Positions 34,001 to 62,223 of a stretch of DNA of 64,000 bases are shown piece after piece. The DNA lies in NCBI GenBank assembly GCA_964637185.1, contig CAZWVB010000001.1:160972-224971 (forward strand), written 5' to 3'. Numbering within the stretch: position 1 is the first letter of the stretch; each line of letters opens with the position of its first letter. This DNA is from an uncultured Candidatus Saccharibacteria bacterium. GTDB lineage: Bacteria > Patescibacteriota > Saccharimonadia > CAILAD01 > BJGX01. Below the pieces are notes generated by a model. It made no database searches. It saw only the letters and a list, made by a program, of their open reading frames with translations, and was not told where the DNA came from. Both the position numbers and the translations under genes were made by a program.

Positions 34001-35278
34001 GTGAAGACCAAACAAATCCGCCGCAAACCTTGGCATTTAGCATTTATGATATTTCTGGCAGTGGGGGTGGCGGTAATTTTAACTCTGGTAGGTTGGCAAT
34101 GGTGGCAAGGACGTGAGTCGGCACAGTACCAAGCGAGTTTGCAGCCATTCTATACACCACCAAGTCCATTGCCCTCGACCCAGCCAGGCTATCTTATTCG
34201 CACTGAGCCAATAAATGTCAGTGTAGCTGGTGGTCAGGCCTACCGGATGCTCTATGTATCTCAACTGGCCGATGGTAGTCCGGCGGTGTCGTCCGGCATG
34301 TTTTTCGTACCAAATACTACCGCACCAGCTGGTGGGCGCAAAGTGGTAGCTTGGGCACATGGTACATTGGGCTTTGGTGACAACTGCGCGCCATCGCGCA
34401 ATCCGACGACTGGGCTCAATGACACTCAGAATTGGCTAAGTGGTATGATGCAGCGCGGCTGGGCAGTAGCAGCGACCGATTATGTTGGGGTCGGCACGCC
34501 AGGCGAGCCCTACTATTTGATAGGCCAGAGTGAGGCCCATGACGTACTTAATTCTGTTCGCGCGCTGCGTAACTTCGCTCCAGCGCAAGCAGGTGATGAC
34601 TTTGCTACCTGGGGGCATTCCCAAGGTGGGCATAGCTCGTTATTTAGTGCACAGCTTGCCAATAGCTACGCGCCAGAATTGCATCTGATGGCAGCAGCCG
34701 CCGCCGCACCAGCCGCTGAGTTGCCAGCTTTGTTTGGCGAGCAATATAACAATACAATTGCCTGGGGGATAGGGCCCGATGCGGCGGTATCTTGGCCCAT
34801 GGTTTATCCCAATTTGCCTTTGCAGGGGATACTCAGCAACTCGGCAATGAGAAACTATCAGAAATTGGCCTATGGGTGTGTAACCCAGGAAGTGCCTGGG
34901 CTAGAACTGCGGGCCGCGCTTGGCGAAAAGTTTTTCCAAACCAATCCAATGGACAATCCGCAGTGGTATGGTGCAGCTCAGGCTCAAACACCACAAGTTG
35001 GCGATATCAAAGTACCGCTCTATATAGCACAGGGCCTAACTGATACAGTGGTATTGCCCAATACTACAGCGTTGTTGGTGCAGTCAGCTTGTGGCCAAAA
35101 AGTAAATACTACTACCAACTGGTTGGGCAATACTGGGCATTTACAGGTGGCGGTTGTGTCTGGGCCAAGCGTTGTCGAGTGGTTGCAGGATAGGTTTGAT
35201 CGTTTGCCGGTGGTGGGTAGTTGTCATCAACCATTGCCAGTACAACCAGCCAGCTCGCCGGCTGCACCAGTCAATTAA
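34001..35278 (+). CDS. Secretory lipase family (LIP) alpha/beta hydrolase, N-terminal TM/signal anchor
   Basis: 425 aa. N-terminal hydrophobic helix. Nucleophile elbow GHSQGG. The overall pattern is that of secreted lipases of the LIP family. GC somewhat elevated. Confidence 0.6.
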   Translation: MKTKQIRRKPWHLAFMIFLAVGVAVILTLVGWQWWQGRESAQYQASLQPFYTPPSPLPSTQPGYLIRTEPINVSVAGGQAYRMLYVSQLADGSPAVSSGMFFVPNTTAPAGGRKVVAWAHGTLGFGDNCAPSRNPTTGLNDTQNWLSGMMQRGWAVAATDYVGVGTPGEPYYLIGQSEAHDVLNSVRALRNFAPAQAGDDFATWGHSQGGHSSLFSAQLANSYAPELHLMAAAAAAPAAELPALFGEQYNNTIAWGIGPDAAVSWPMVYPNLPLQGILSNSAMRNYQKLAYGCVTQEVPGLELRAALGEKFFQTNPMDNPQWYGAAQAQTPQVGDIKVPLYIAQGLTDTVVLPNTTALLVQSACGQKVNTTTNWLGNTGHLQVAVVSGPSVVEWLQDRFDRLPVVGSCHQPLPVQPASSPAAPVN

Positions 35279-36194: not shown

Positions 36195-39100
36195 ATGCCA
36201 GAAACTATAACAACCCAGCCAGAACCTAATAGATCAGAATCAAGTAGTGTTCAGCTACCCAAGTCTCCTCTTGATCAAGCAGTTCAACAAACAGCATCTG
36301 AAAAAGGCTTTCGTGATGAGGCGATAGAGTTTTTGACTACAAAGGGCGCCATGGATACTCTAATGCGGCAGTTTGAAACAAAAGACAAGTATGGGCAAAG
36401 TAGGATAAGAGGCGAGATTGATGCCCGCATCGCTGCCGAGTTGGCGGCCGCTGAACCAGATAAAGCACTTGAAATAGCCAGTGGATTGAAAGGCCAGGAA
36501 TTTGTTACTGCAGTCACACCGCTAGTAGCTGCAGAACCAGAAAAAGCTTCGGAGTTGATCAAGCTTCGGGCAGTTAATATAGACCCTGTAATTGCAGAGA
36601 TAGTGGCTCGAGCTACCGACACTAGCTTTGCACTTAGCTATATCCAAGCCATGACCGATTATTCCGCCAAGTATGAGCCTCATCATTCGAGCCTGCAAGC
36701 GGCGTTCCGTAGAGCTTGCGTGAATATGCTATTAGCACTAGCCGAATCAAGGCCGGGACAAATCGCTGATATTATCTCGACTGCCCAAAGGTTCTTTGCT
36801 GCTACCAAAGAAAGACTAAGTGACATTTCGGGCACTAGCTGCTATCGTGAGGACCTGCGCTGGCCGATTGTTCAGAGTTTTGTTGAGAGAGCACGTGATA
36901 AACCAGAGCTCACATCTTTTGTGGTAGAATCTGTTGGAGATCTACTGGATGCAGAACAAGTAGCCGAGCTATCAATTGGTCTGGCTGGGTTGGACGCAGA
37001 CAGGGCAAAGACATTGCTGGAGTCGATGGAATCATTTGATATGCCGGCCGAAAAGTACTTCGAAGTTTTGCAAATTATAGAGGGCTCGAGTGCAAAAGTA
37101 CCGATCGAATATACGTCGGAGCTGCTGCAAAAATTGCCTGCCACAGAGCATTCAATTCGTATGCTGATGAAGCTAGGCACACCCGAGGCAACCGAACTGG
37201 CGTTTGCAAAGATGCTTGGAACGGTCGAAAATAGATTTGGGTACGTTAAGTACGGACCCGACCTACTGGCCGAGCTAACTGCTGACAGTCCAGAATTGGC
37301 CACCAAGGTTTTGGATCTATATGAGTTCAACGGCGAAAAAGTTGACCAATATTCCGTTTGGCGTGGCGCAGTCATAGCTGCGGCAAAGCTACAGCCCGAA
37401 AGGGCATTAGAGGCTATGGGCGATGAAATCGATAAGCCTTTGATGATTGGTGTGGCTCAGGTAATGCCAGAAAAGATTGAGCCAAAGGTAGCCGAGCTTC
37501 GAGAATATGACCAACGCGACTATGCCGGTGCACTAGCGATAGGTTTTGCGTCAACCGACATCGAAAAAGCCATTGAATGGGCGAATAAGGGTAATGATGA
37601 ATGGGTTCGTGGTGGTGTTGCAATAGAAATAGCCAAAACGGATCCTGAACGAGCAATTGATTTTTTGAGCGACTCCCCCCAGAGTTTTATACCGCTTATA
37701 GAGATCGGTCAAACTACCCCAGCAGCAGTCGAAAAAGCAATCAGAATCTACTCCGACAGTCACCGCCGTGTAGATGCTTCACATGCCGAGTTGCTGGCCG
37801 AGACAGCTTGTCACCAACCAGAGTTTGCGGCCAGATTATTGAAGATAATAAACGAAATAAGTACCAAAGAGAGTGGTTATAGCTCCGATAGCCCCCAGAG
37901 ACGCCGACAGGTAAATATTGCCAGAGAAAAGGTATTTAACTTTCATGCCCAAAACCATCCTCTAACTTTTCTGGGGATGCTATCGCAAGATATAGACTTT
38001 CATATCTACGATAGCGAGATGGTCAACACAGCCCTAACAGCTGCTCTCGATGGAGCCTTTGCAGAAGACCCTGCCAAAGCAGCGACACTACTAAGCAAAG
38101 TTAAGGGTGAATACCGCGCCCAGTTGCTGGCTGGTGCGTTAAAATACGATGAAAGCTTTTACGACAGGGCTAAGCTTGCTGCCCAAAAAGAACTTGCAGG
38201 ACGTTTTGACGATACCAAATCAACTATTTCTGTTCTGGCTAATCTTGTACAGAACAATAGACCGTCTGAGGCTGAGCAAATATTACAGGAAATCGCAAAA
38301 GGGGTAGAGCAAAGTTATGATGCGATATACAAATTAACTCCTATTGGCCATGCGATACCAGAGCTGGCATCCGTGGTGGTATCACGATTGATTGAATTGG
38401 CAACATCAAGTACTAGCTCAGCCTACGACCAGCATGGCATCATTATGGCATTGGCTAAATTTGTGGGTACCAGCCAGGCCGCCAAAGAAGCAATAGCAGA
38501 TGTTGTTAGCTTCAGAAGATATAGTAAAAGCACAAAGGAATACAACACGGAGTTGGTTGGGGAATTGCTAGCGGTCGACCCAGTTTTTGCGGGTGAAATG
38601 TATGAAAAGATACTTGATCGTGCTAGTGATAATGACATAACCAAACAACTGAGTAAGCTCTCGCTCGAGGACTTTAGCAAATTTGTTTTGAGTAACAATA
38701 GTGGAGGCGCTAACCTTGCTTTCATAACAAATCGACTAAAGGGTCAACCGGAATCAGCTACCGAGTTGTTAAATCTTGGCGAACAGGTGTTTGCGACGAG
38801 CCCGCAAAATAAGATTGAGCTGTATTCGCTTTTTATAGATTATTTGCCTGACGTAGCTTCCAAATTGGTACAGACCTACGAGGAGCTTGATGACGATCGT
38901 GCCAAAAAGTCCTTAATGGGTGAAGCTATACTGGCCTATGCCCGACTGCAAAATGAGCGACTTGATCCTATCGTTAGAGAAAAGATTTATGGCGCTACCA
39001 ACCCGGTATTAGATCCGTTTAACATGGAAAAAGACCGCAGCTTTAACTTTCGCGCTGTTACGGCAGAAGACATTGAGGCTAGCCCCCAACTCATTGCTAC

Positions 39101-48645: not shown

Positions 48646-48977
48646 TGGCCAACCAATCTCTTACTAGCCTGATAAAGATTGCAGCACAAGTAACCAATTA
48701 GTACCAGTAACAAGATTTCTTCAACTGGCAAGTTCGGGTTGACTATATTTATATTCATAACGTATTTTTGATTGGTATAGAATATCTGCCAGCCAATTCC
48801 TGCGATGTCCAAAAGTAGCAGTAACAGTGTGCTGGCTAATATGGCTATGCCGCTAGCTGGAGTATTGTCCCAAAATGACAATCTATAATGCTTGTCTATA
48901 ACCATCATACCCCCTAAGCCAACAAGCAGCACTAGTAAATATGCAAAATGATCAATGATGTATACCATATTTTTCAC
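48642..48977 (-). CDS. Lycopene cyclase domain protein (heterodimeric cyclase subunit, CrtYc/CrtYe-like)
   Basis: 111 aa. Three TM helices. PVEE motif (NLPVEEILLLVL). Confidence 0.7.
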   Translation of the reverse strand: MKNMVYIIDHFAYLLVLLVGLGGMMVIDKHYRLSFWDNTPASGIAILASTLLLLLLDIAGIGWQIFYTNQKYVMNINIVNPNLPVEEILLLVLIGYLCCNLYQASKRLVGQ

Positions 48978-48990
48978 TAATAAGCCTAAC

Positions 48991-49006
48991 CCATCTGGTA
49001 TTATAT
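48991..49006 (+). promoter_or_regulatory. CCATCTGG plus ta plus TTATAT element 7 nt upstream of the crtI ATG (leaderless candidate)
   Basis: CCATCTGG at 48991-48998, TTATAT at 49001-49006, ATG at 49014. No SD. Confidence 0.4.
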
Positions 49007-49013
49007 ATGCAAT

Positions 49014-50507
49014 ATGAGTAGAAAATCAGTCATAATTGTTGGCGCGGGTATTGGAGGTTTGTGTACAGCAGCAAGGCTGTCATCACTTGGTTATCAGGTG
49101 TCTGTTTTCGAAAAAGAAGCCTTAGTCGGCGGTCGCGCCAACCGCATCGAAAAAGATGGTTACAAGTTTGATATTGGGCCTACGCTACTCATGATGACAG
49201 ATGTACTGGAAGAAACCTTCAGATTTTGTGGCAAAAAAATGACTGACTATCTAGAGTTGATACAGCTTGAACCAAATTATCAGGTGGTATTTGGTGATCA
49301 TAGTCGGGTAGAAGTGAGTAGCAACCTACCGCGTTTAACAAAGCAACTCGCCCGACTAGATGAAAAAGCACCCGAGCAGTTTTTTGACTATTTTGCCAGT
49401 GTCAGTGAGTTCTATAGATTGTCACGACACAACTATATAGAGCGAAACTTCGACAAATTGAGCGAGTTTGTAAATATTCGTCATGGCAGCAAGCTTCTCT
49501 ACAAACATGGCCTACAAAATTTGTGGGATTATACTGGTAGATATTTTGACGATGAAAGATTGCGACAACTTTTTAGTTTTCAAAGCATGTATTTGGGGGT
49601 TAGCCCATATGAGGCTCCGGCCATTTATTCCACAGTAAGTTATATGGAGACGGCTTTAGGTATTTGGTACCCAAAAGGTGGTATGTATAGTTTGAGTTTG
49701 GCTTTGGCCAAACTCTGTCGAGACCTGGGTGTAAAAATAACTACCAATAGCCCAGTGGAACAAATCATCGTAGAGTCAGGTCGAGCCAAAGCCGTACGAG
49801 TCGGTGGAAAGCAACATGCAGCCGATATTATTGTAGCCAACTCTGATTTGGTCTATAGCCATCAGTATCTGCTGAATGAAACCAGCCAGTTCGACAAATA
49901 CACGCCAAAACTTCAGAAGCTACGCCAAGCAAGCTCAGCGATGCTGTTTTACTGGGGTGTCAACGACGACTTGGATGGTTTGTTGCATCACAATGTGATT
50001 CTTAGCAATCAGTTCAAACAAAATTTGCAAGATATATTCCACAATCAGCGTTTGCCCAAAACGCCTAGTTTTTACGTTTACGTTCCTACAAAAACAGACC
50101 CGCGGCTTGCCCCGCCAAACCGTCATATAATGTATGTACTTGTGCCGGTGCCCAATCTCAGCGCCAACATCGATTGGCCAAAGGCGGCTGCACGTCTAAA
50201 AAAACAAGTTCTAGCTCGCTGTCTTCAGGAATTCAAAATTGATTTGACTGACAAAATAGACTCAGAAGAGGTATTTGGTCCCGAAGATTTCAAAACAAAG
50301 TTTAATTTGCCTGATGGATCTGCCTTTGGCCTCAGTCACACTCTGGCGCAATCTGCATATTTTCGTCCCCACAATAAATCCACTGACATCAAAAACTTAT
50401 TTTTTGTGGGCGCTAGTACTTATCCAGGTGGTGGTGTCCCTATGGTCACTATCAGCGCAAAACTTGTGGTTGAGCGTATTCAAAAAGGAGAAGCTAATGC
50501 TGTCTAA
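49014..50507 (+). CDS. crtI: Phytoene desaturase
   Basis: 497 aa. N-terminal FAD-binding motif IIVGAGIGGL. CrtI-type overall. Confidence 0.85.
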   Translation: MSRKSVIIVGAGIGGLCTAARLSSLGYQVSVFEKEALVGGRANRIEKDGYKFDIGPTLLMMTDVLEETFRFCGKKMTDYLELIQLEPNYQVVFGDHSRVEVSSNLPRLTKQLARLDEKAPEQFFDYFASVSEFYRLSRHNYIERNFDKLSEFVNIRHGSKLLYKHGLQNLWDYTGRYFDDERLRQLFSFQSMYLGVSPYEAPAIYSTVSYMETALGIWYPKGGMYSLSLALAKLCRDLGVKITTNSPVEQIIVESGRAKAVRVGGKQHAADIIVANSDLVYSHQYLLNETSQFDKYTPKLQKLRQASSAMLFYWGVNDDLDGLLHHNVILSNQFKQNLQDIFHNQRLPKTPSFYVYVPTKTDPRLAPPNRHIMYVLVPVPNLSANIDWPKAAARLKKQVLARCLQEFKIDLTDKIDSEEVFGPEDFKTKFNLPDGSAFGLSHTLAQSAYFRPHNKSTDIKNLFFVGASTYPGGGVPMVTISAKLVVERIQKGEANAV

Positions 50508-51552
50508 ATACATTGCCCACAACAAAGAGATGATAGATCACGCACTCAAAGAACATTTTGATAATACCGAAGCTCAATTGTCAGGTGATAGAGTAGTCCT
50601 TGATTTAGTTGAGAGTATCAAAAGTGTAGCCATGAACGGCGGCAAACGACTTAGGCCATTGTTGATGAGCTTGAGCTACGAGATGTACGGTGGGGGCAAC
50701 AAGTTGCTGAAGGTTCAGGCCGGTATTGTACTAGAGCTGCTGCATACATTTATGCTAATCCACGACGACATTGAAGACGGTGATTTACAGAGACATGGTG
50801 GCCCGACTGTTGAGGCGATATATCGTAACAAACTGACTGGCAAGAATATCGAACAAAGAAATCATATTGCTAGGGGATGCGCTATCAATGCTGGTGACGT
50901 AGCGCATTCGATGGTTTATGCTAAGCTCAGCTCACTTTCCGCACAGCCCTCAACAATAGTGTCGTTGGTAAAACTGGTAAGTGACAAGAGCATCATCACC
51001 GCTCTAGGGCAGCAGCACGACATACTTGCGCCCACTACAAAAAAGCTAGTGCTAGCAGATGTTGAGCGTATTGCTCTATACAAGACTGCCTACTATTCGT
51101 TTATCTTGCCATTGTTGTTTGGATCAACACTCGCGGAAAATACCAAAGACGGTAAAAAACTCGAGCAGATTGGTCGTAACCTAGGCGTGGCATTTCAAAT
51201 CACAGATGACTTGTTGGGTGTATATGGACAATCAGAAGTGTTGGGTAAGCCAAATATATCGGACATGAGGGAAGGCAAAAATACCATGTTATTGCATCAC
51301 GCACTAAGCATGGCCCAGCCAAGTCAGATCAAGACTATCAAACAGTATTGGGGGAACTCTCAGGCCGACAGTGCCGCACTGGACCAGATCCGTGAAATTT
51401 TTGAAGTATCTGGTGCCAAGCAGAAAGCCATCAATGATGCTAGTGAGTTACACGCCATTGCTGTCAAAAATATCAAGGGTCTTAAGATCGACACTAAGTA
51501 TCAACAATTATTGCAAGAATTCTCAGATAAATGCGTCAACAGGATATTTTGA
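50497..51552 (+). CDS. crtE: Polyprenyl (geranylgeranyl) diphosphate synthase
   Basis: First aspartate-rich motif LIHDDIEDGD, second aspartate-rich motif FQITDDLLG. The ATG at 50497 has AAAGGAG upstream. The ORF track entry 50275.. is an in-frame upstream extension that overlaps the 3' end of crtI, which lies in a different reading frame. Confidence 0.85.
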   Translation: MLSKYIAHNKEMIDHALKEHFDNTEAQLSGDRVVLDLVESIKSVAMNGGKRLRPLLMSLSYEMYGGGNKLLKVQAGIVLELLHTFMLIHDDIEDGDLQRHGGPTVEAIYRNKLTGKNIEQRNHIARGCAINAGDVAHSMVYAKLSSLSAQPSTIVSLVKLVSDKSIITALGQQHDILAPTTKKLVLADVERIALYKTAYYSFILPLLFGSTLAENTKDGKKLEQIGRNLGVAFQITDDLLGVYGQSEVLGKPNISDMREGKNTMLLHHALSMAQPSQIKTIKQYWGNSQADSAALDQIREIFEVSGAKQKAINDASELHAIAVKNIKGLKIDTKYQQLLQEFSDKCVNRIF

Positions 51553-52403
51553 TGTCTCAGCTAACTTACAACCAGACTGTCTATACCCGAGCCAGCTACC
51601 AGACTAGCAAGTTATGGACACGCGAATTTTCCTCGTCTTTTTATAAAGCAACAACACTTTTGGACGAACCGATCAGGACTCACATATTTAATGTTTATGG
51701 GTTAGTCCGTTTGGCAGATGAAATAGTGGATAGTTGGCGACCATCGGACATGGCTACAATGTTATCAGCTCTTGAGAAAGATATTTACAAAGCCACAAAG
51801 TCTGGTTTTAGTACCAACCCGATCGTCCATGCATATGCAATTACCGTAGTGCAATTTGGTATCGATCAGGATTTGATAAAAGCTTTTTTTGCGAGCATGA
51901 AAATGGACATAGCAAAAAGTAAGTACACACAAACCGAATTTGAGCGCTATATATATGGTTCGGCACAGTCAGTTGGTTTGATGTGCTTGGCGGTGTTTGT
52001 AAATGGCGATCGGCAGATGTATAACAGGCTAAAGCCAGCCGCCATGTCTCTCGGCGCAGGTTTTCAAAAGGTCAATTTTTTGCGTGACTTAGGTAGTGAT
52101 GAGCAGGAGCTAGCTAGGTATTATTTCCCAAAACAAAACGCCAAACAAATCACTATCAAACAATACCGGGCTATCATTGCCGATATCAATGCTGATTTTA
52201 CAACGGCTCAAATAGGCATCGTTCATTTGCCAAAAAGCTCCCGCTATGCAGTAGCGCTAGCCTTGGCTTCTTACAAGTTGTTGTTAGACAAATTATCACA
52301 ACAATCACTCTCAGATGTTTACGGTGCTAGATATAGAGTAGGATCATTACAGAAAGCTCAGTTGCTCACAAAATATCGTCTGGTCAAAATGCTTGGAAGA
52401 TGA
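51552..52403 (+). CDS. crtB: Phytoene synthase
   Basis: Squalene/phytoene synthase fold: YIYGSAQSVGLMCL, DEL... The start is either the ATG at 51552 (TGATG overlap with the crtE stop) or the ATG at 51531. Confidence 0.85.
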   Translation: MSQLTYNQTVYTRASYQTSKLWTREFSSSFYKATTLLDEPIRTHIFNVYGLVRLADEIVDSWRPSDMATMLSALEKDIYKATKSGFSTNPIVHAYAITVVQFGIDQDLIKAFFASMKMDIAKSKYTQTEFERYIYGSAQSVGLMCLAVFVNGDRQMYNRLKPAAMSLGAGFQKVNFLRDLGSDEQELARYYFPKQNAKQITIKQYRAIIADINADFTTAQIGIVHLPKSSRYAVALALASYKLLLDKLSQQSLSDVYGARYRVGSLQKAQLLTKYRLVKMLGR

Positions 52404-52415
52404 GACACTAGAAGT

Positions 52416-53588
52416 ATGGCCCCAAAATCATCCAAATTTGTGGTGGATGGTATTGCATATGAACTTAGTCCGGATGGTGCTCGTCGTGTAGGTGTCAAAA
52501 CCAAGCCCAAAATTGGTGTTAAGAGACCAACCCATACCCAAACCAGCAATCCTGAGATCATACCACTCAATACCGAAAGTCGTAATACAAGCAGCTGGCT
52601 TTGGATATTGACCAGCGTGCGCATGGTGCTTTCAATCCGGTTTTGGTTGGTAGTATTTTTACCCATTGGATTACTGATTGTCATTAAGACCCTACAACTC
52701 AATTCGTATGAGTTGGTCCAAACTGGCTCCAATTGGTTGACACTTGCCAAAATAGCGCGCCTACAACTCACGGCGGTTTTTTTTGCTGCTCTGCTGGTAG
52801 TAGGTATTTTTCTAGAGGCTTGGTTGCGCAAATTGGCTGCTGATAATAAGCCAACGTATTGGAGTATGATGGCGGCGATTGTTGCATCATCACTTGGCTA
52901 TGGCGTGTTAATAATGATGGCAGCGGCGTTAGTGTTTGGCGTGTGTCTGATGACGATTAATCAGTTGTATGTAGCCTTACCTATTTTGACCGTCTTCATA
53001 TGCTTACTAATCGTGGCGAGCTGGCTCATGTTTGCTCTATGGTGTTGGTCTCGTCGCAACTTAGTGTTGTCTGGATTTGGCCAGTCCTTGAAGGTGAATC
53101 GACAAATCTTATTGCCCAAATCAGCGAACGCTGGATTTCTTGCCACTACAGGCTATTCAGCAATACGTATCTTGCCAGCCACTATGACACTGCTGCTGCT
53201 TTTGCTAGTAATAGGTATAATTACTTTGGTATTTGTATCTGGTTTGTCGGTAGGCTGGCAAGCATTAACAATGATCTTGGGCTTGGTGTTAAGTCTGTTG
53301 ATGCTTAGCTATGATCATCTTGCAAAACTCCAATACTGGCGACAAGTGTTGAAACCTGCCGATCAATACAAACGGTATCCGTCGGGTGCTTTGACCATGC
53401 TAGGAGTCGATGCCCTTGTGGTTGTATTAGTGGCCGTAGCACTTATGGTACAGTTGGTGATCCCAAAACTACTCTTGAAAGCACATCTGACCACCAAAGA
53501 CATCAAAAAAACCTTTGATCAACTCAATCTTACACTGCCGTCACCCAAGCAGGTCAAACCATTTGACAACTCTACAGAAAACAGGTAA
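52416..53588 (+). CDS. Hypothetical polytopic membrane protein (390 aa)
   Basis: Roughly 8-10 predicted TM helices. No recognised motif. Immediately downstream of crtB. Confidence 0.5.
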   Translation: MAPKSSKFVVDGIAYELSPDGARRVGVKTKPKIGVKRPTHTQTSNPEIIPLNTESRNTSSWLWILTSVRMVLSIRFWLVVFLPIGLLIVIKTLQLNSYELVQTGSNWLTLAKIARLQLTAVFFAALLVVGIFLEAWLRKLAADNKPTYWSMMAAIVASSLGYGVLIMMAAALVFGVCLMTINQLYVALPILTVFICLLIVASWLMFALWCWSRRNLVLSGFGQSLKVNRQILLPKSANAGFLATTGYSAIRILPATMTLLLLLLVIGIITLVFVSGLSVGWQALTMILGLVLSLLMLSYDHLAKLQYWRQVLKPADQYKRYPSGALTMLGVDALVVVLVAVALMVQLVIPKLLLKAHLTTKDIKKTFDQLNLTLPSPKQVKPFDNSTENR

Positions 53589-56029: not shown

Positions 56030-56848
56030 ATGAGAGGGCCAAATCCAATTGATTTTGATAAGTGGTTGCGCGATCGATCGCGTCAGGCCGACTTTGATTT
56101 GGCCGATGTTGAGTTATATCAGCGGAAAGCAAACCAACCATTTTCTGGGGTATTGGGTGATGCTGAGCTCAAAGCCTGCATGAATACTGGTCAGGTGGTG
56201 ATCGATCCATTTGAGCCTGAGCTACTCAACTCCAGCAGCTATGATGTGCGTTTGGGTGGTAACTATTACGTCGCCGAGAAAGTTGGCGACCGAGTGGACT
56301 TCTCACCCTATACCAAAGAAGAAGTTGAGCTTTACTACTCTGGCCCTCACAAGGCTACTACTCATGAGCAGTGGTGCAAACAGCATCGTCGCCAACCATT
56401 CGCCGGCATCGATCGCGACGAACATATCATAGTGTTGGCGCCGGGTGAATGCATATTGGCCCATACGGTGGAGTACATTGGCGCGAGCTATGGCATCACT
56501 ACCATGATGAAGGCTCGCTCAAGTCTGGGCCGTATCAACATCAGCTCTTGCGACGACGCCGGTTGGGGAGATGTTGGCTACATCAATCGTTGGACCATGG
56601 AGATACGTAACAAAAACACCAGCGTATGGGTGCCTTTGGTAGTTGGAATGCCGATTGCCCAAATGATTTTCTTCTGGGTAGCAGCTAGCACCATAGATTA
56701 TGGCGCTACTGGCCATTATCAATCGGGGGTTGATATCCGTAAACTACAAAAAGCCTGGCGCCCCGAAGGAATGCTACCTAAATTGTACTCTAGCAGCAAT
56801 ACCGCATTGCGCAAGAAGTTGTCCAAAGACAAAAAGACTGGCTTTTGA
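56030..56848 (+). CDS. dCTP deaminase family protein (Dcd-like; possibly a bifunctional dCTP deaminase/dUTPase) with N- and C-terminal extensions
   Basis: Aligns to E. coli Dcd blocks: SYDVRLG vs TVDVRLG, LAPGECILAHTVEYI vs LHPGELALAVTLESV, KARSSLGRINI vs DGRSSLARLGL, DAGWGDVGYINRWTMEIRN vs DPGWSGCIVLEFYN. Confidence 0.75.
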   Translation: MRGPNPIDFDKWLRDRSRQADFDLADVELYQRKANQPFSGVLGDAELKACMNTGQVVIDPFEPELLNSSSYDVRLGGNYYVAEKVGDRVDFSPYTKEEVELYYSGPHKATTHEQWCKQHRRQPFAGIDRDEHIIVLAPGECILAHTVEYIGASYGITTMMKARSSLGRINISSCDDAGWGDVGYINRWTMEIRNKNTSVWVPLVVGMPIAQMIFFWVAASTIDYGATGHYQSGVDIRKLQKAWRPEGMLPKLYSSSNTALRKKLSKDKKTGF

Positions 56849-56948
56849 ACTTAGTTTTCAAGCTTTTTAGTTTGAGCACAATCATATATACTAAATCCTG
56901 ACTTAGAGGCGGAAAGTTTCCGACCTTGAAAACTAGGAGGTGAGGGCT

Positions 56949-57449
56949 GTGCCCCACATCAACAATCCAGGGGTGGATTGGTGCGTCACGGCCTACATCG
57001 TCCGTGAACATGAAGGTGAGTTGCAGGTTCTACTGTGCGACCATCGCAAGCTCGGCACATGGGTGCCGATTGGTGGCCACGTGGAACCGCACGAAGACCC
57101 CATCACGGCGCTGTTTCGCGAAGTTCGTGAGGAGTGTGGTGGGATCGATATCAAGCTGCTCTACGGCAAAGCGTCGCGTTCCCACTACGGTCCGAAGAAC
57201 TACGACCTGCCCAAGCCAGACTTCTTCGATCTTCACCCGATCGAGACCGAGGTGGATCATCAGCATGTTGGCATGGGCTGGATCTGCTGGCTCGACGCTG
57301 GCGAACCGACGCTCAGCGATGAGCATCGAGAGCTGCGTTGGTTCAGCCGAGGTGATCTCAGTGGGGTCAGCATGCCGATCAACGTGCTCAATCACGCCTG
57401 CGACGCGCTGCACTACACCAAGCTCGACATCAGCTGGGTAAAGGAGTAA
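56949..57449 (+). CDS. Nudix hydrolase (GC-rich)
   Basis: Nudix box GGHVEPHEDPITALFREVREECG. GTG at 56949 has AGGAGG 8 nt upstream. The ORF track start at 56940 is an alternative. Confidence 0.75.
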   Translation: MPHINNPGVDWCVTAYIVREHEGELQVLLCDHRKLGTWVPIGGHVEPHEDPITALFREVREECGGIDIKLLYGKASRSHYGPKNYDLPKPDFFDLHPIETEVDHQHVGMGWICWLDAGEPTLSDEHRELRWFSRGDLSGVSMPINVLNHACDALHYTKLDISWVKE

Positions 57450-57452
57450 GAC

Positions 57453-58070
57453 ATGTCTCAACCACTCTATATTGCACTTGAGGGTGTTGAGGGTTGTGGC
57501 AAGTCCACGCAAGCTCAACTCCTCGCCGATCGACTCGGTGCTGTTCTGACTCGTGAGCCAGGCGGCACCCCGATGGGCAGCATGGTTCGCCAGATCTTGC
57601 TCGATCCGAACACCGGAGAGCTCGAACCCATGGCCGAAGTGTTGCTGTTCAATGCCGACCGTGTGCAGCATCTGCACGAGGTGGTGTTGCCGGCGCTGCA
57701 GGCTGGCCAGCCAGTGGTCTCTGATCGCAGCTATGTCAGCAACTGTGTCTACCAAGGCCACGCTCGTGGGCTGGGTGCCGACTATGTGCGCTCGGTCTGC
57801 AGCCTGGTGGTGACCGAGCTGTTCCCGCATCGAATCTTCGTGCTGGATGTGGACCTGGCTGACTCAATGGCACGGATCAGTGCCCGTGGGGGTGAACTCG
57901 ACCGCTTCGAACAAGAAGGAGCGGAGTTTCATGCCAAGCTCGTAGAGGGGTTCCGCATCGAAGCTCAGAAGGGGCTGCCTGGTCAGTTCGTGTTCATCGA
58001 TGGCCGCGGCAGCGTGGAAGAAGTCCAACAATCCATCTGGGCTCATGTCGAGCCCTTGCAAGCAGCCTGA
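57453..58070 (+). CDS. tmk: Thymidylate (dTMP) kinase
   Basis: P-loop IALEGVEGCGKST, TREPGGT and LID-region DRFE. Confidence 0.9.
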   Translation: MSQPLYIALEGVEGCGKSTQAQLLADRLGAVLTREPGGTPMGSMVRQILLDPNTGELEPMAEVLLFNADRVQHLHEVVLPALQAGQPVVSDRSYVSNCVYQGHARGLGADYVRSVCSLVVTELFPHRIFVLDVDLADSMARISARGGELDRFEQEGAEFHAKLVEGFRIEAQKGLPGQFVFIDGRGSVEEVQQSIWAHVEPLQAA

Positions 58071-58082
58071 GAGGAGGGCAGC

Positions 58083-58352
58083 GTGAGTGCGCCACTGCTA
58101 GATATGAAGGTCCGCTTCAACCAGGAGCGGAAGATGTGGGAGGCTTATCGGCGTGCTCCGCGCACCGTCAACGACTCTGTCGGCCACCCGCGTCACAAGC
58201 CAGAGGTTGAAGTAGTGGTAGAAGCCGGTGACATGGCTACGTTTCGCGAGAAACTAATCGATCACTTACTCCGGCCGTACTTCGAGCGAGCACAAGAAGA
58301 AGTCGATGCCGCGATCGATGCGGCATATCGTGAACAACCGCGCCCCAACTAG
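58083..58352 (+). CDS. Hypothetical protein (89 aa), GC-rich
   Basis: GTG start with GAGGAGGG upstream. No motif. Confidence 0.4.
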   Translation: MSAPLLDMKVRFNQERKMWEAYRRAPRTVNDSVGHPRHKPEVEVVVEAGDMATFREKLIDHLLRPYFERAQEEVDAAIDAAYREQPRPN

Positions 58353-58377
58353 GGCTACATCAACAAGGAGGGGCGCA

Positions 58378-60213
58378 ATGCCCACGAAAGAGAGAAACCC
58401 ATACATCCGGACCTACAAGGGGCAGAAGGTGCCGACCAAGCTTGGCATCCGCTACCTGAGCGAGATCGTGACCGATCCGACTGGGCCGGTCTACTTCTTC
58501 ACCGCACAAGCCAACATCGTGGTGGTGGCGGCAGCCATGGCCCGGCTCAGCCGGCGCGATGGCGACCTGCGGGTCACCATCCTCGAGGAGTTCGCTGGTG
58601 TGCAAGACGCCGCCGTGCTCACCAAGCTGCGCAAGCACGAGCTGCTCAAGGTGATCCGTGAGCTGGAGAACGCGTTGAAGTTCTTCGAGACCGAGTTGGG
58701 CGGCTCATTTGCTCGGGACGAGGAGCTACCTCACCAGATCAAGGCACTGCGGACGCTGCGGCAGGCGATTGCCGACCTCACGGCCGGCCGACTGCGGACT
58801 GAAGAGGCGGCCGCGCTGATCAACCGTGTGGTCACCGAGTTCGGTGACGATTCGGTGCAGCAGCTGATCACGGTGATGTTCGTCTGCGAGGGTGTGAGCA
58901 ACCTCATGACCAAGGAGCTGGAGTGGGGGCGAGTGGCTGCGGCCTATCTCGAGCAGTCCACCCGCTATATCTACTTCGACACCAAGGTCGACGGTCGCTA
59001 CAAGTACTTCCGGCCAGAGCTCGAGGACTTGCTCGCGTACTACGAGTTCATCATGGATGAGATCTTCGATCGTTACTCCACGGTGGTGCGTGAGGTCACC
59101 GAGTATGTCAAGGTGCACAACCCGCGTCCGGACAAGGCTGCGGATCCGGGCGGGCATGCCGGCTGGCCTGGTTCGGTGCGGGCGGAAGCCTGCGATGCTG
59201 CACGGGCCATCCTACCGGTTGGCACCCGCTCGACGGTGGGTATCACCATGTCGGCTCAGGCTCTCGATGCGCTGATCATGCGACTGCTGTCACGTGAGCT
59301 GCCCGAGGCTCGGGCCATGGGCGCCGCGCTGCTGCGCGAAGCCCGCAAGGTGATCCCGGAGTTCTTGGAGCGCACCGACAAGCCTGACCGCGGGCTGATG
59401 ACCATCAGCTACTTGGCCGAGACGCGGGCTGGTCTGCGCGAGTTCGCGCTCAACGAGCTACCGCCTGCCAAGTTGGCCAAGAAGAGCAAGAAGGCCGAAG
59501 AGCCGGTGACGCTACTGGACTACTACCCACATGATGAGCGTGAGTTGGGACCAGGCTTGCTCTACGCCGTCGATGGTCGCTCCATGACCGAGCTGGGCAA
59601 GCTGGTTGGCAAGCTGCCGCGCAAGAAGCTGCGCAAGCTCATGCTGATCTACTTCGGCGAGCGCCTCAACCGACGTCATCGGCCGGGGCGAGCTGCCGAG
59701 GCAGCCAGCTTCAACTGGGAGCTGGTCGGCGACTATGGCACCTTCCGCGACCTACAGCGGCACCGCATGGTCAGTGCCATGGAGTGGCCGGCGCTCACGC
59801 CGTATCTCGGCTACGAGGTGCCGGAGCTGGTGACGAAGGCTGGGCAGCACGACAACTTCGTTCGGGCCTTCGAGCTGTCCAGCGAGCTCTACAACGAGTT
59901 GTACGGCGCTGGCTACAAGTACGAGGCTCAGTACGCGCTGTGCATGGGCTACCGCATGCGCTACCGCTTCATCACCAGTCTGCGTGAGCTGTTCCATCTG
60001 CTGGAGTTGCGCACCAGTCCGCAAGGTCATCCCGGCTACCGCAAGCTGTGCAACCTCATGTACGACGAGGTGGCCCGGGTCTACCCGATCAGCGCGGAAG
60101 CCATGTGCTTCGTCAACCAGCAAGACACGCTCGGTGAGCTGACCCGCATGGCCTCGGAGCGGGCCACAGCCGACAAGCTGGCCAAGCTGGCGGAGCGGGC
60201 CACTGCGGAGTGA
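58378..60213 (+). CDS. thyX: FAD-dependent thymidylate synthase ThyX, tandem (pseudo-dimeric) two-domain form
   Basis: ~611 aa. The C-terminal half carries the ThyX RHR motif (LQRHRMVSAME). The N-terminal half shows a degenerate ThyX-like block (FVCEGVSNLMTKELEWGR). ATG at 58378 with AAGGAGG upstream. Confidence 0.75.
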   Translation: MPTKERNPYIRTYKGQKVPTKLGIRYLSEIVTDPTGPVYFFTAQANIVVVAAAMARLSRRDGDLRVTILEEFAGVQDAAVLTKLRKHELLKVIRELENALKFFETELGGSFARDEELPHQIKALRTLRQAIADLTAGRLRTEEAAALINRVVTEFGDDSVQQLITVMFVCEGVSNLMTKELEWGRVAAAYLEQSTRYIYFDTKVDGRYKYFRPELEDLLAYYEFIMDEIFDRYSTVVREVTEYVKVHNPRPDKAADPGGHAGWPGSVRAEACDAARAILPVGTRSTVGITMSAQALDALIMRLLSRELPEARAMGAALLREARKVIPEFLERTDKPDRGLMTISYLAETRAGLREFALNELPPAKLAKKSKKAEEPVTLLDYYPHDERELGPGLLYAVDGRSMTELGKLVGKLPRKKLRKLMLIYFGERLNRRHRPGRAAEAASFNWELVGDYGTFRDLQRHRMVSAMEWPALTPYLGYEVPELVTKAGQHDNFVRAFELSSELYNELYGAGYKYEAQYALCMGYRMRYRFITSLRELFHLLELRTSPQGHPGYRKLCNLMYDEVARVYPISAEAMCFVNQQDTLGELTRMASERATADKLAKLAERATAE

Positions 60214-60237
60214 GATCTCCGCATAGCAAAACTCTCA

Positions 60238-60273
60238 AGCGAGCCCGAGGGACTACCGTCCCTCGGGCTCGCT
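60238..60273. terminator. Perfect 15-bp GC-rich hairpin after thyX (terminator candidate, no U tract)
   Basis: AGCGAGCCCGAGGGA-ctaccg-TCCCTCGGGCTCGCT. Confidence 0.5.
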
Positions 60274-60296: not shown

Positions 60297-61553
60297 ATGA
60301 TGAACAAATTGTCTGAGCTTACCAATGCTGAGTATGATCGTCAGCGCGACAGCCTCAATCTCATTGCGTCCGAAAACTATCCTAGTCCGAGAGTTTTGGA
60401 GCTATTAGGATCTGTGTGGATGAACAAGTACGCCGAGGGCTATCCAGGCAAGCGCTATTATGCTGGCAATGTTCATGCCGATGAGCTAGAGGATTTTGTG
60501 CAGTCTAAAGCACTGGAAGTATTTGATCCAACTGGTGAATATGGAGCCAATGTACAAGTGTTGTCAGGCAGCCCGGCCAACGCCATGGTGTTTTTGAACG
60601 TACTGGAGCCGGGCGACACAGTACTAAGCCTAGATTTGCCCAGTGGCGGTCATCTTAGTCACTTGCACGGCACTAGCAGCTGGCTCAAATTTTTCGCACA
60701 TGAGACTTATGGTACGGTAGCATCAGACAGCGGCTACGAGGTAGATATCAGTGATTATGAGGCCAAGCTCAAATCAGCCAAGCCCAAGCTCACTATCATA
60801 GGGTTCTCAGCCTATCCCAAGCGAGTTGATTTTGAGGCTATGATCAAACTAGCGCACGAGCATGGTAGTCTGGTACTGGCTGACATCGCTCATATCAATG
60901 GTCTGATCGCGGCAGGACTTCACGACAGTCCATTTAAACCTGGCGAGCTGGGGGCTGATTTTGTCAGCATGACCACTCACAAGACTATGCGTGGTCCGCG
61001 CGGCGCGCTACTTTTTGCCAAGCAAGAGTATATGGACAGTCTCAACAAGACTGTATTTCCTGGTACTTCAGGAGGTCCTCATCTGCATCAGATAGCTGCT
61101 GTCGGCCAAAGCTTGCTGGAGATACTCGGTGAGGATGTGTACCCAGATGGCCGGGCATTTCGCGATTATGCTAGTGATATCATCGACAATTGCCGGGCAC
61201 TCGAAGATGGTATGACTCAGCATGGCTTGGAAGTGGTAAGCCCTACCCAGACGCATCTGAGCTTGGTACGTTTGCCAGCATCGGTGGACAGCCTAGAATT
61301 ACAGCAAAAACTTGAACAGATTGGTATCGTGACCAATCGCAATAGTGTACCCAATGACCCCAAAACTCCTTGGCGCCCAAGCGGTTTGCGTCTTGGCACG
61401 GCGGCGCTCACCAGCCGTGGGCTGAGCACACACCATGCCAGCCAGTTAGGTGCTTTGATAGCAGGTGTCGCGATTGGCAAACAAAATGAGGCTGAGGCTG
61501 CTAACCAAACCCAACAAATACTGGCTGATATAGACTGGTTTTACACCAAATAG
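60297..61553 (+). CDS. glyA: Serine hydroxymethyltransferase
   Basis: 418 aa. ...LIASENYPSP..., PLP-lysine region TTHKTMRGPRG. Confidence 0.93.
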   Translation: MMNKLSELTNAEYDRQRDSLNLIASENYPSPRVLELLGSVWMNKYAEGYPGKRYYAGNVHADELEDFVQSKALEVFDPTGEYGANVQVLSGSPANAMVFLNVLEPGDTVLSLDLPSGGHLSHLHGTSSWLKFFAHETYGTVASDSGYEVDISDYEAKLKSAKPKLTIIGFSAYPKRVDFEAMIKLAHEHGSLVLADIAHINGLIAAGLHDSPFKPGELGADFVSMTTHKTMRGPRGALLFAKQEYMDSLNKTVFPGTSGGPHLHQIAAVGQSLLEILGEDVYPDGRAFRDYASDIIDNCRALEDGMTQHGLEVVSPTQTHLSLVRLPASVDSLELQQKLEQIGIVTNRNSVPNDPKTPWRPSGLRLGTAALTSRGLSTHHASQLGALIAGVAIGKQNEAEAANQTQQILADIDWFYTK

Positions 61554-61682
61554 CATTGACATAAGCATTAATACCTGATATAATCTTCGTACCACTTCAG
61601 GTGGCCGGAGACCAAGTGAATACCCCAGGCGGACACGAGGTCTTTTTTGTTTCTATTCACCCACGGCGACCAAGGGAGGACC

Positions 61683-61991
61683 ATGACTCGCCGATACCAC
61701 AAGAAACGTCAGCCGCCAGAGCTGACGGTACGCACCTATTTGCGCTGTGCACCCAACAGCGCGCATCCGCAGGAGGTGCTCTGGCTCAGCTGGTGCCAGC
61801 TCGGCAACGGAGCCGAGCCGCTGCACAGCTTCTGCCAGCATCCAAGCTGCGACGGCCGTGGTCAGCGTGTGCCTACAAGCGAGCTGACCAACAAGTACCG
61901 CCAAGCGCGCTTCGAGGCTGGTGAGATCGCGCTGGCCTTGCCCGATGGGCAGTGGCTGGTACAGCCGGCCAAGTCCGTGGCACGGGTCTGA
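61683..61991 (+). CDS. Hypothetical Cys-rich protein (~102 aa), GC-rich islet
   Basis: ATG at 61683 has AAGGGAGG upstream. Six Cys (C..., CQHPSCDG). A GC-rich hairpin GGGAAGGGGC-gaga-GCCCCTTCCC follows at 62007-62030. Confidence 0.4.
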   Translation: MTRRYHKKRQPPELTVRTYLRCAPNSAHPQEVLWLSWCQLGNGAEPLHSFCQHPSCDGRGQRVPTSELTNKYRQARFEAGEIALALPDGQWLVQPAKSVARV

Positions 61992-62035
61992 AGTAGGCAA
62001 GAGGTTGGGAAGGGGCGAGAGCCCCTTCCCACACC

Positions 62036-62065
62036 TTGACTAATCTAGCCATTATCTGATACAAT
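62036..62065 (+). promoter_or_regulatory. Sigma70-like promoter for rplJ-rplL (-35 TTGACT, -10 TACAAT) followed by a ~160-nt leader
   Basis: TTGACT at 62036-62041, TACAAT at 62060-62065. The long untranslated leader is the expected location of the L10(L12)4 autoregulatory structure. Confidence 0.55.
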
Positions 62066-62223
62066 ATTTGCGATTACCAAAGACTGTAGCTTCCCCAGCT
62101 GGCGGATTAAATATGCTACAAGAGGTAAACAATCGATATGATTGTTGGACACGAAGTCTTTGGAGTATATCCAAAGATTTTTTGTTTGGTAATCGCGAAC
62201 ATTACATTAACAAGGAGAGGTAC

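What the first reader, a model, noticed from the sequence alone, without database searches (positions are those of the whole stretch)
58378..60213. Tandem two-domain ThyX
The ThyX ORF is about 611 aa, more than twice the usual ~220-250 aa. The C-terminal half has a canonical RHRxxS motif. The N-terminal half retains a ThyX-like block, FVCEGVSNLMTKELEWGR, in which the RHR position is degenerate (EWGR). ThyX functions as a homotetramer with active sites at subunit interfaces. A covalently fused pseudo-dimer with one degenerate half would halve the number of active sites per particle. The origin of this architecture is worth tracing.
Basis: partly seen in the sequence, partly recalled or inferred. 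Interest (0 to 1): 0.5.

Follow-up and report, generated by a model that had tools for sequence, protein, structure and literature searches.

The report
Duplicated ThyX with split active-site motifs
The gene really encodes a thymidylate synthase built from two fused ThyX domains, but this double form is a widespread, already annotated family; its notable feature is that each half keeps only the catalytic residues the other half has lost.

Summary

It is not an artefact and not rare. More than 16,000 database proteins share the architecture, as do at least 593 species genomes in Saccharibacteria, Parcubacteria, Actinomycetota, Chloroflexota and Acidobacteriota. NCBI names them 'FAD-dependent thymidylate synthase'. 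A 2009 paper (PMC3224940) already noted an uncharacterised duplicated ThyX in Chloroflexi.

The N half is not simply the degenerate copy.
- The N half lost R-H of RHR and the R190/R199 equivalents, but keeps the catalytic Ser-x-Arg-Tyr (S194/R196/Y197).
- The C half keeps RHR, R536 and R545, but lost Ser-x-Arg-Tyr.

In canonical ThyX these two residue sets reach each active site from different subunits. The likely enzyme is therefore a dimer of tandem chains, a pseudo-tetramer with two complete and two dead sites. This quaternary model is inferred, not shown.

Features specific to this clade are a 62-aa helical-hairpin insertion and a GC-rich tmk-orf89-thyX block. Interest is modest.

The parts
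58378..60213 (+). thyX CDS, 611 aa plus stop: a two-domain (duplicated) flavin-dependent thymidylate synthase
58365..58371 (+). Shine-Dalgarno AAGGAGG, 6 nt upstream of the ATG at 58378
   Evidence: Sequence read directly.
58378..59382 (+). N-terminal ThyX domain (aa 1-335). Proposed role: donor of the dUMP-binding and catalytic half of the active site.
   Evidence: Pfam Thy1 E 5e-13 on the half alone. The family profile aligns to M. tuberculosis ThyX 62-228. The isolated-half AF2 model hits only ThyX chains, best 3gwc at E 6e-7.
58603..58788 (+). Clade-specific 62-aa insertion (aa 76-137), predicted as a helical hairpin (H86-107, H113-136) between helix 1 and the GDDS motif
   Evidence: Present only in the window protein and P0001-P0005 (alignment). 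ARLSR-to-GDDSV spacing is 90-102 aa in this clade, against 35-36 aa in about 160 of 200 relatives. pLDDT is low, 53-69.
58843..58854 (+). GDDS (aa 156-159), counterpart of canonical G-H-x-S. The FAD-contacting Ser is kept (S159); the His is replaced by Asp.
   Evidence: Aligned to Mtb 'GHFS' (S71). S159 is present in 80 of 80 genomes.
58924..58968 (+). N-domain ThyX motif WGRVAAAYLEQSTRY (aa 183-197). R-H of RHR is lost (W183, G184). The third Arg (R185) and the catalytic S194, R196 and Y197 are kept.
   Evidence: Aligned to Mtb 'RHRHFSYSQLSQRY'. Conservation: W 77/80, G 79/80, R/S/R/Y 80/80.
59179..59286 (+). N-domain 'R268..R276..LP' segment is kept. Q294 and L303 stand where canonical R190 and R199 (Mtb numbering) would be.
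   Evidence: alignment. R276 80/80, Q294 80/80, L/M303 80/80.
59383..59505 (+). Inter-domain linker (aa 336-376): one helix plus a Lys-rich coil. This is the least conserved part.
   Evidence: AF2 secondary structure H339-360 followed by coil. Identity to relatives is 24-36%, against 42-59% in the domain cores.
59506..60210 (+). C-terminal ThyX domain (aa 377-611). Proposed role: donor of the FAD-binding RHR half of the active site.
   Evidence: Pfam Thy1 E 9.7e-17 on the half alone. Profile alignments to H. pylori and PBCV-1 ThyX.
59758..59799 (+). C-domain motif RHRMVSAMEWPALT (aa 461-474). RHR is intact. The Ser-x-Arg-Tyr positions are replaced by P471 (Gln in relatives), L473 and T474.
   Evidence: R461 80/80, H462 79/80, R463 80/80, Q at position 471 80/80, L473 77/80. 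Sequence confirmed.
59983..60012 (+). C-domain R536 and R545, counterparts of Mtb R190/R199 (Hp R165/R174). 'ELRTS' is identical to PBCV-1 ThyX.
   Evidence: alignments to 3n3y and 4fzb. Both Arg are 80/80.
56030..56848 (+). dCTP deaminase-like gene, a neighbour that supplies the dUMP precursor
   Evidence: Pfam DCD E 2.3e-28.
57453..58070 (+). tmk (dTMP kinase), a separate gene here. It is fused to the N-terminus of the two-domain ThyX in many Saccharibacteria.
   Evidence: Pfam Thymidylate_kin E 1.3e-41. PF02223+PF02511 fusions of about 785 aa. Fused in 22 of 47 Saccharibacteria species loci.
58083..58352 (+). orf89, a small clade-specific ORF between tmk and thyX, function unknown
   Evidence: No Pfam hit. 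The only homologue found is the 87-aa ORF at the same position in L001, 62.5% identical.
60297..61553 (+). Serine hydroxymethyltransferase, which regenerates CH2-H4folate, the ThyX carbon donor
   Evidence: Pfam SHMT E 6e-107.

Best explanation
The gene encodes a functional flavin-dependent thymidylate synthase of the duplicated (two-domain) ThyX family.

An ancient tandem duplication and fusion of a ThyX domain was followed by reciprocal loss of active-site residues. The N domain kept what a canonical subunit gives to the dUMP/catalytic side of a site: N175, S194, R196, Y197, R268. The C domain kept what a different canonical subunit gives to the FAD side of the same site: R461-H462-R463 and R545, plus R536.

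The inferred enzyme is a homodimer of tandem chains that reproduces the canonical D2 tetramer as a C2 pseudo-tetramer. Two sites are complete (RHR from a C domain, Ser-Arg-Tyr from an N domain). The two symmetry-related sites are dead.

Together with the flanking dCTP deaminase, dTMP kinase and SHMT genes, it forms a dUMP to dTMP to dTDP module inserted in the L11-L1 / L10 ribosomal-protein cluster of a Saccharibacteria-type genome.

Shown: two ThyX-fold domains, the reciprocal residue pattern and its conservation, the genomic context, and the distribution. Inferred: the dimeric pseudo-tetramer, two sites per particle, and the activity.
For: - Both halves are Thy1 domains. Their fold matches ThyX only.
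- Residue register comes from profile-to-PDB alignments.
- Subunit roles in the canonical tetramer come from PMC6514825. RHR and R199 come from subunit A. S71 and R190 come from subunit B. R87, S105, R107 and Y108 come from subunit C of the same site.
- Ser88, Arg90 and Tyr91 are strictly conserved and critical in T. maritima ThyX (PMC11940539).
- The reciprocal pattern is 96-100% conserved in 80 species genomes from at least 5 phyla. That indicates purifying selection on both halves and a single origin.
- The two domain cores diverge in parallel across phyla: N core 42-57%, C core 38-59% identity.
- The dTMP-pathway neighbours are conserved in relatives. Frequent Tmk-ThyX-ThyX fusions tie the protein to dTMP production.
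- Valas & Bourne report that non-Dehalococcoides Chloroflexi have only the duplicated ThyX, so it must supply dTMP there (PMC3224940).
- AF2 pTM of 0.83 for the full chain implies a defined N-C domain packing.
Against: - No oligomer model, structure or assay exists. No tandem ThyX is in the PDB.
- The 'b-role' residues are split. Ser is kept in the N domain (S159) and Arg in the C domain (R536), so the third contributor to each site is unresolved.
- The His of G-H-x-S, which as I recall stacks on folate in T. maritima, is missing from both domains (D157, P436). Folate/NADPH binding must therefore differ.
- TIGR02170 (thyX equivalog) scores 71.1, below its cut-off of 87.9.
- The two halves are not detectably similar to each other (BLASTP; hhalign probability 0.65%). 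Their common origin rests on each matching Thy1 and the ThyX fold.
Confidence: 0.72

Rival explanations
1. One-sided decay. The C-terminal domain is a complete canonical ThyX that does the chemistry. The N-terminal domain is a pseudo-enzyme that only serves as a scaffold or regulatory partner.
For: RHR is intact only in the C half, and the N half has W-G-R. The C half has the stronger Pfam score.
Against: The C half lacks the Ser-x-Arg-Tyr catalytic residues and the R..LP arginine: Q471 80/80, L473 77/80, Q/P/S at position 518. Those residues are strictly required in T. maritima ThyX. The N half keeps exactly those residues in 80 of 80 genomes, which is not expected of a pure scaffold.
Confidence: 0.08
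2. The protein is a ThyX-fold enzyme with a different substrate or reaction, for example a UMP/dCMP-type methylase like PolB, or a non-catalytic nucleotide-binding protein. On this reading it is not the cell's thymidylate synthase.
For: It scores below the TIGR02170 equivalog cut-off. The His of G-H-x-S is lost in both domains. The UMP/dUMP methylase PolB is among the structural neighbours. No biochemical data exist for any member.
Against: The gene is embedded between dCTP deaminase, dTMP kinase and SHMT, and this arrangement is conserved in relatives. Frequent translational fusion to dTMP kinase only makes sense if dTMP is the product. The protein is reported as the sole thymidylate synthase homologue in most Chloroflexi. 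All dUMP- and FAD-contacting arginines are present once per N+C pair.
Confidence: 0.12
3. The long ORF is an artificial fusion created by a frameshift, an assembly chimera or read-through of two adjacent thyX genes.
For: The block has sharply higher GC (0.63; GC3 0.83) than its flanks, which could hint at a chimeric assembly.
Against: The same continuous two-domain ORF occurs in more than 16,000 proteins and at least 593 species genomes. The same GC jump and the same gene order occur in an independent 116-kb contig, L001. The GC boundary lies at gene borders, not at the domain junction; the N half is 0.630 and the C half 0.637.
Confidence: 0.01

Closest known systems
Canonical homotetrameric ThyX / FDTS (Pfam PF02511; T. 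maritima 1O26, M. tuberculosis 2AF6/3GWC, H. pylori 3N3Y, PBCV-1 4FZB)
   Different: There are two domains per chain (611 aa against about 220-250). No single domain holds the full RHRxxSxxxxSxRY motif; it is split between the domains. The His of G-H-x-S is absent. Sequence is so divergent that phmmer finds no PDB ThyX and TIGR02170 is below cut-off. The inferred assembly has 2 rather than 4 sites per pseudo-tetramer.
Duplicated ThyX of Chloroflexi and 'a few other species' (Valas & Bourne 2009, PMC3224940), annotated by NCBI as 'FAD-dependent thymidylate synthase' in Chloroflexota, Dehalococcoidia, Acidimicrobiia and Saccharimonadales
   Same: It has the same two-domain architecture, the same N-domain signatures (GDDSV[QA]QL, [AS]YLEQSTRY) and the same C-domain signatures (NRRH[RK]PGRA, FRDLQRHR, ELRT.PQGH). 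Identity is 38-59% in both domain cores. The window protein is a member of this family.
   Different: The window clade (window protein plus P0001-P0005) carries an extra 62-aa helical hairpin in the N domain, has Pro instead of the otherwise invariant Gln471, and sits in a GC-rich gene block.
Tmk-ThyX-ThyX triple fusions of Saccharibacteria and Parcubacteria (about 770-810 aa, PF02223+PF02511)
   Same: They have the same two-domain ThyX module, 44-54% identical, and the same gene neighbourhood.
   Different: In the window, tmk is a separate gene (57453-58070). It is followed by a clade-specific 89-aa ORF that has no similarity to the fusion linkers.
Leduc et al. [quoted passage not shown] The title is as listed in PMC3498832. 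The content is from my memory; the paper was not readable here.
   Same: It established that ThyX active sites are built in trans from different subunits. That is the precondition for two complementary defective domains to form a working site.
   Different: It was an engineered or mutational analysis of a homotetramer. Here the complementation would be fixed by evolution within one polypeptide.

Membership tests
ThyX / Thy1 superfamily (PF02511) | Significant match to the Thy1 profile above the gathering score | tested here: met
   Whole protein 122.7 bits. N half alone 49.7 bits. C half alone 61.8 bits. Cut-off 24.8.
ThyX / Thy1 superfamily (PF02511) | ThyX alpha/beta fold | tested here: met
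Canonical ThyX (TIGR02170 equivalog) | Score at or above the NCBIfam equivalog cut-off | tested here: not met
   71.1 bits against a cut-off of 87.9.
Canonical ThyX (TIGR02170 equivalog) | Complete ThyX motif RHRxxSxxxxSxR(Y) within one domain | tested here: not met
   N domain: WGRVAAAYLEQSTRY, with R-H lost. C domain: RHRMVSAMEWPALT, with S-x-R-Y lost. The motif is complete only when the two domains are combined.
Canonical ThyX (TIGR02170 equivalog) | Homotetramer with four FAD and four active sites at three-subunit interfaces | not testable with these tools
   No multimer prediction or model coordinates were available. A dimer-of-tandems pseudo-tetramer with two sites is inferred from the residue roles.
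Canonical ThyX (TIGR02170 equivalog) | FAD-, NADPH- and CH2-H4folate-dependent conversion of dUMP to dTMP | not testable with these tools
   Support is by context only: DCD, tmk and SHMT neighbours and Tmk fusions.
Duplicated (two-domain) ThyX family | Single chain of about 530-545 aa with two Thy1 domains joined by a variable linker | tested here: met
   611 aa, which is the family length plus a 62-aa insertion. It aligns end to end with 70 relatives.
Duplicated (two-domain) ThyX family | N-domain signatures GDDSV[QA]QL and [AS]YLEQSTRY; W-G-R in place of RHR | tested here: met
   Present at aa 156-163 and 189-197. These were the patterns that retrieved 593 genomes.
Duplicated (two-domain) ThyX family | C-domain signatures NRRH[RK]PGRA, FRDLQRHR, ELRT.PQGHPGYR; Gln at the canonical Ser position | tested here: inconclusive
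   All signatures are present. The exception is position 471, which is Pro in the window clade against Gln in 80 of 80 other genomes.

The most novel reading that the evidence does not exclude
The duplicated ThyX family may be a natural case of reciprocal active-site subfunctionalisation. On this reading, two ThyX domains that are each catalytically dead alone are obligately paired in one chain, giving a C2 pseudo-tetramer with exactly two composite active sites (catalytic Ser-Arg-Tyr from the 'degenerate' N domain, RHR from the C domain) and a remodelled folate/NADPH pocket lacking the canonical His. As far as the searched literature shows, this has not been described or structurally characterised, although the family supplies dTMP in abundant lineages (SAR202-type Chloroflexi, Acidimicrobiia, Saccharibacteria).
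Probability: 0.5. Interest if true: 0.5.

Novelty: new member of a known kind. Interest (0 to 1): 0.33.

Why it matters
The tandem architecture is not a discovery. It is widespread, carries an NCBI annotation, and was noted in print in 2009.

Three points remain of value.
1. The family appears to be the thymidylate synthase of very abundant uncultured lineages, yet it has no solved structure and, as far as I could find, no biochemistry.
2. The reciprocal split of the ThyX motif gives a clear, testable prediction: one FAD and one active site per 540-610-aa chain, with both domains essential. It would be a clean natural example of subunit-interface active sites becoming fixed as a pseudo-symmetric heteromer after gene fusion.
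3. ThyX is pursued as an antibacterial target. A remodelled folate/NADPH pocket in this branch could change inhibitor sensitivity.

For annotation, it matters that motif-based rules looking for 'RHRxxS' would point to the wrong domain as the catalytic one.

Tried and rejected
- Direct similarity between the two halves. BLASTP and hhalign of the half-alignments (probability 0.65%) find nothing. Common origin therefore rests on each half matching Thy1 and the ThyX fold.
- phmmer of the single sequence against the PDB found no ThyX. A family profile was needed.
- AFDB50 fold search for annotated full-length look-alikes: the library was unavailable.
- Model coordinates are not exposed, so the intrachain domain interface could not be mapped onto the canonical tetramer.
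- The listing of cluster members on ten distant representatives gave no organism names.
- Chlamydia. My recollection is that C. trachomatis ThyX (CT632, about 529 aa, biochemically characterised by Griffin et al. 2005) is also a long form. I could not verify this: no hit for CT632 and the JBC paper is not held. Leduc 2004 PNAS is not held either. The recollection is left as an untested lead.
- Literature searches returned nothing relevant for ThyX with Saccharibacteria/Patescibacteria, for tandem/fused/double ThyX, or for Tmk-ThyX fusion. The only relevant hit was Valas & Bourne 2009.
- orf89 as a relic of the Tmk-ThyX fusion linker: no similarity to any fusion protein. Rejected.
- Recent HGT or an assembly chimera as the explanation of the GC jump. 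The same jump and synteny occur in L001, and the nearest ThyX relatives are still Patescibacteria-type, 55-58% against about 40% for Actinomycetota. The donor remains unidentified.
- Rfam on the GC-rich SHMT-L10 spacer: nothing credible.
Full report
**1. The observation**

Window 58306..60213 (+) is a single open reading frame. The ATG at 58378 is preceded by AAGGAGG at 58365-58371 and follows the stop codon of the upstream 89-aa ORF. A 97%-identical database protein is also 611 aa (P0001), and the family N-terminus aligns from this Met. The quoted peptide FVCEGVSNLMTKELEWGR is at aa 168-185, and RHRMVS is at aa 461-466.

Pfam Thy1 (PF02511) matches the protein in two stretches (E 2e-35). It also matches each half submitted alone: N half E 5e-13, C half E 9.7e-17, gathering score 24.8 bits. 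The condition that would have refuted the finding, 'the N half shows no Thy1 similarity', is not met.

**2. Artefact excluded; the family is large**

The full-length protein has at least 7,981 relatives in the 90%-clustered protein collection. Typical lengths are 530-545 aa, or about 770-810 aa when dTMP kinase is fused in front. At 50% clustering, 440 clusters reach E<=1e-30.

They belong to Saccharibacteria/Saccharimonadales, Parcubacteria, Actinomycetota (Acidimicrobiia, Nitriliruptorales), Chloroflexota (including Limnocylindria) and Acidobacteriota. A second search seeded with a Chloroflexota member returned another 8,000 proteins, again saturating the cap. Many of these are named by NCBI 'FAD-dependent thymidylate synthase' from Dehalococcoidia, Chloroflexi and Acidimicrobiia.

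[quoted passage not shown] The architecture is thus known and annotated. No tandem ThyX is in the PDB: all matches are single-domain chains, TM-score relative to the query <=0.27. I found no paper characterising one.

**3. What the two halves have kept**

Profile-to-PDB alignments fix the register.
- N domain: 'GDDSVQQL...LEWGRLAAYLEQSTRY...TRAQACDAVRAVLP...SAQA...LIMRL' aligns with M. tuberculosis ThyX 'GHFSVLEH...LIRHRHFSYSQLSQRY...RKQARQAARAVLP...NYRA...IAMR'.
- C domain: 'PGRALEKAH...FRDLQRHR...EAQYA...NLRELFHLLELRTSP' aligns with H. pylori and PBCV-1 ThyX 'HSSTLEH...LSRHR...ARFILP...TIRDWIHYIELRTS'.

The published description of the M. tuberculosis enzyme (PMC6514825) says each active site is made by three subunits.
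- Subunit A gives R95-H96-R97 (FAD phosphate/ribityl; R95 also contacts dUMP) and R199 (dUMP).
- Subunit B gives S71 and R190 (FAD).
- Subunit C gives R87, S105 and R107 (dUMP) and the Y108 lid.

The T. maritima equivalents Ser88, Arg90 and Tyr91 are strictly conserved and critical for catalysis (PMC11940539).

Mapped on the window protein, by Mtb position:

| Mtb residue | N domain | C domain |
|---|---|---|
| S71 | S159 (kept) | R438 |
| R87 | N175 | Y453 |
| R95-H96-R97 (RHR) | W183-G184-R185 | R461-H462-R463 (kept) |
| S105 / R107 / Y108 | S194 / R196 / Y197 (kept) | P471 (Gln in relatives) / L473 / T474 |
| 'R..LP' Arg | R268 (kept) | Q518 |
| R190 | Q294 | R536 (kept) |
| R199 | L303 | R545 (kept) |

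Across 80 species genomes from at least five phyla this pattern is almost invariant.
- N domain: W183 77/80, G184 79/80. R185, S194, R196, Y197, R276 and Q294 are all 80/80.
- C domain: R461 80/80, H462 79/80, R463 80/80, Gln471 80/80, L473 77/80, R536 80/80, R545 80/80.

The Ser that makes the window's C-half motif read 'RHRxxS' (S466) is Asp or a gap in 79 of the 80 genomes. It is a clade peculiarity and not a conserved motif element.

**4. Interpretation**

The decay is reciprocal, not one-sided.
- The N domain can only play the 'subunit C' role, the dUMP/catalytic side.
- The C domain can only play the 'subunit A' role, the FAD/RHR side plus R199.

In a D2 tetramer the four sites use the ordered subunit triples (A,B,C), (B,A,D), (C,D,A) and (D,C,B). 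Suppose A-type positions must be C domains and C-type positions must be N domains. Then exactly two of the four sites are complete in any arrangement of two N and two C domains, and the other two are doubly defective (W-G-R and L303 facing Q/P471-L473-T474).

The most economical model is a homodimer of tandem chains forming a pseudo-tetramer with two active sites, one per polypeptide.

The B-role residues are split: Ser is kept in the N domain and Arg in the C domain. I cannot say which domain supplies that role. The His of G-H-x-S is absent from both domains (D157, P436), so the folate/NADPH side of the pocket must be built differently. The role of that His in stacking on folate in T. maritima is from my memory. 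The quaternary structure, FAD stoichiometry and activity are inferred and not shown.

**5. Functional context**

The gene lies in a dTMP module: dCTP deaminase-like (56030-56848), NUDIX (56940-57449), dTMP kinase (57453-58070), orf89 (58083-58352), thyX, and SHMT (60297-61553). This module is inserted between nusG-L11-L1 (53773-55826) and L10 (62068-). Relatives L001 and L002 share the same order. L1 upstream is found in 36 and L10 downstream in 38 of the 82 fetched loci (L001-L082), with the best matches in Saccharibacteria loci.

The window's NusG, L11, L1 and L10 are most similar to those of Saccharibacteria loci. The host is therefore a Saccharibacteria-type (Patescibacteria) bacterium.

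In 22 of 47 Saccharibacteria species, Tmk is translationally fused to the two-domain ThyX. It is fused in none of 25 Actinomycetota. Fusion to dTMP kinase, the SHMT neighbour, and the report that this is the only thymidylate synthase homologue in most Chloroflexi together support a genuine thymidylate synthase function. This holds despite the sub-threshold TIGR02170 score (71.1 against 87.9).

**6. Origin**

The N and C domain cores diverge in parallel between phyla: N core 42-57%, C core 38-59% identity to the window protein. The reciprocal residue pattern is shared by all members. This points to a single ancient duplication and fusion, with the reciprocal losses completed before the family spread. 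The carriers are mostly Terrabacteria-type lineages (Chloroflexota, Actinomycetota, Patescibacteria). I did not resolve whether this reflects vertical descent or transfer.

**7. What is particular to this window**

(a) A 62-aa insertion (aa 76-137) is predicted as a helical hairpin of low confidence. It occurs only in the window protein and P0001-P0005.

(b) Pro stands in place of the otherwise invariant Gln471.

(c) A GC-rich block covers the 3' part of NUDIX, tmk, orf89 and thyX. GC is 0.57-0.63 and thyX GC3 is 0.83, against GC3 of 0.44-0.54 in the flanking genes. The same jump is seen in the independent contig L001. It is therefore a clade-level feature and not a chimera. A plausible cause is an in-place replacement from a GC-richer donor in the clade's ancestor, but the donor is unidentified.

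**8. Verdict**

The finding is real. The reciprocal split of the ThyX motif and the resulting two-site pseudo-tetramer is a neat, testable and apparently unpublished refinement. It remains an inference about a housekeeping enzyme. Interest is modest (0.33). Novelty: new member of a known kind.

Noticed in passing
window 57000-60250: A GC-rich block covers the 3' part of NUDIX, tmk, orf89 and thyX. GC is 0.57-0.63 and thyX GC3 is 0.83, against a window mean of 0.489 and flanking GC3 of 0.44-0.54. It ends sharply before SHMT. The same jump occurs in relative L001 (thyX GC3 0.81, flanks 0.38-0.46). This suggests an ancestral in-place replacement from a GC-richer donor. tmk is only 55% identical between the window and L001, while flanking genes are 79-91% identical.
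   Followed up: partly
window 58083-58352: An 89-aa ORF sits between tmk and thyX. It has no Pfam hit. Its only homologue is an 87-aa ORF at the same position in L001 (62.5% identity). It is absent from L002 and from Tmk-ThyX fusion linkers.
   Followed up: partly
window 58603-58788 (ThyX aa 76-137): A clade-specific 62-aa predicted helical hairpin is inserted in the N-terminal ThyX domain. It was seen in only 6 of about 200 family members examined. Its function is unknown.
   Followed up: partly
window 46344-53588: A carotenoid/isoprenoid-like gene cluster lies just upstream of nusG. It comprises a UbiA prenyltransferase fused to a GT2 glycosyltransferase (46344-48383, minus strand), a CrtI-like flavin amine oxidase (49014-50507), a polyprenyl synthetase (50275-51552), a squalene/phytoene synthase (51531-52403) and a 390-aa ORF with no Pfam hit (52416-53588). 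L001 also has SQS_PSY there. This is unexpected for a reduced Saccharibacteria-type genome.
   Followed up: no
window 61554-62067: The spacer between SHMT and the L10 gene is about 510 nt, with GC of 0.60-0.63 at 61650-62100. It has no credible Rfam match, including no L10 leader. It may be an unrecognised leader or regulatory RNA, or a gene remnant.
   Followed up: partly
window 34001-35278 and 36195-41582: A secretory-lipase (LIP family) gene lies in a locally GC-rich 2-kb bin (0.565). Next to it is a 1,795-aa ORF whose only Pfam hit is a C-terminal GNAT acetyltransferase domain.
   Followed up: no
L003-L052 (Saccharibacteria and Parcubacteria loci) and P0045-P0120: About half of Saccharibacteria species encode a triple fusion Tmk-ThyX(N)-ThyX(C) of about 770-810 aa. 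None of the 25 Actinomycetota loci does. This implies coupling of dTMP synthesis to phosphorylation in that lineage.
   Followed up: partly
L002 3429-5276: Relative L002 (GCA_964565675.1) has two tandem dCTP-deaminase-like genes upstream of tmk. The window and L001 have one. L002 also lacks the NUDIX gene and orf89.
   Followed up: no
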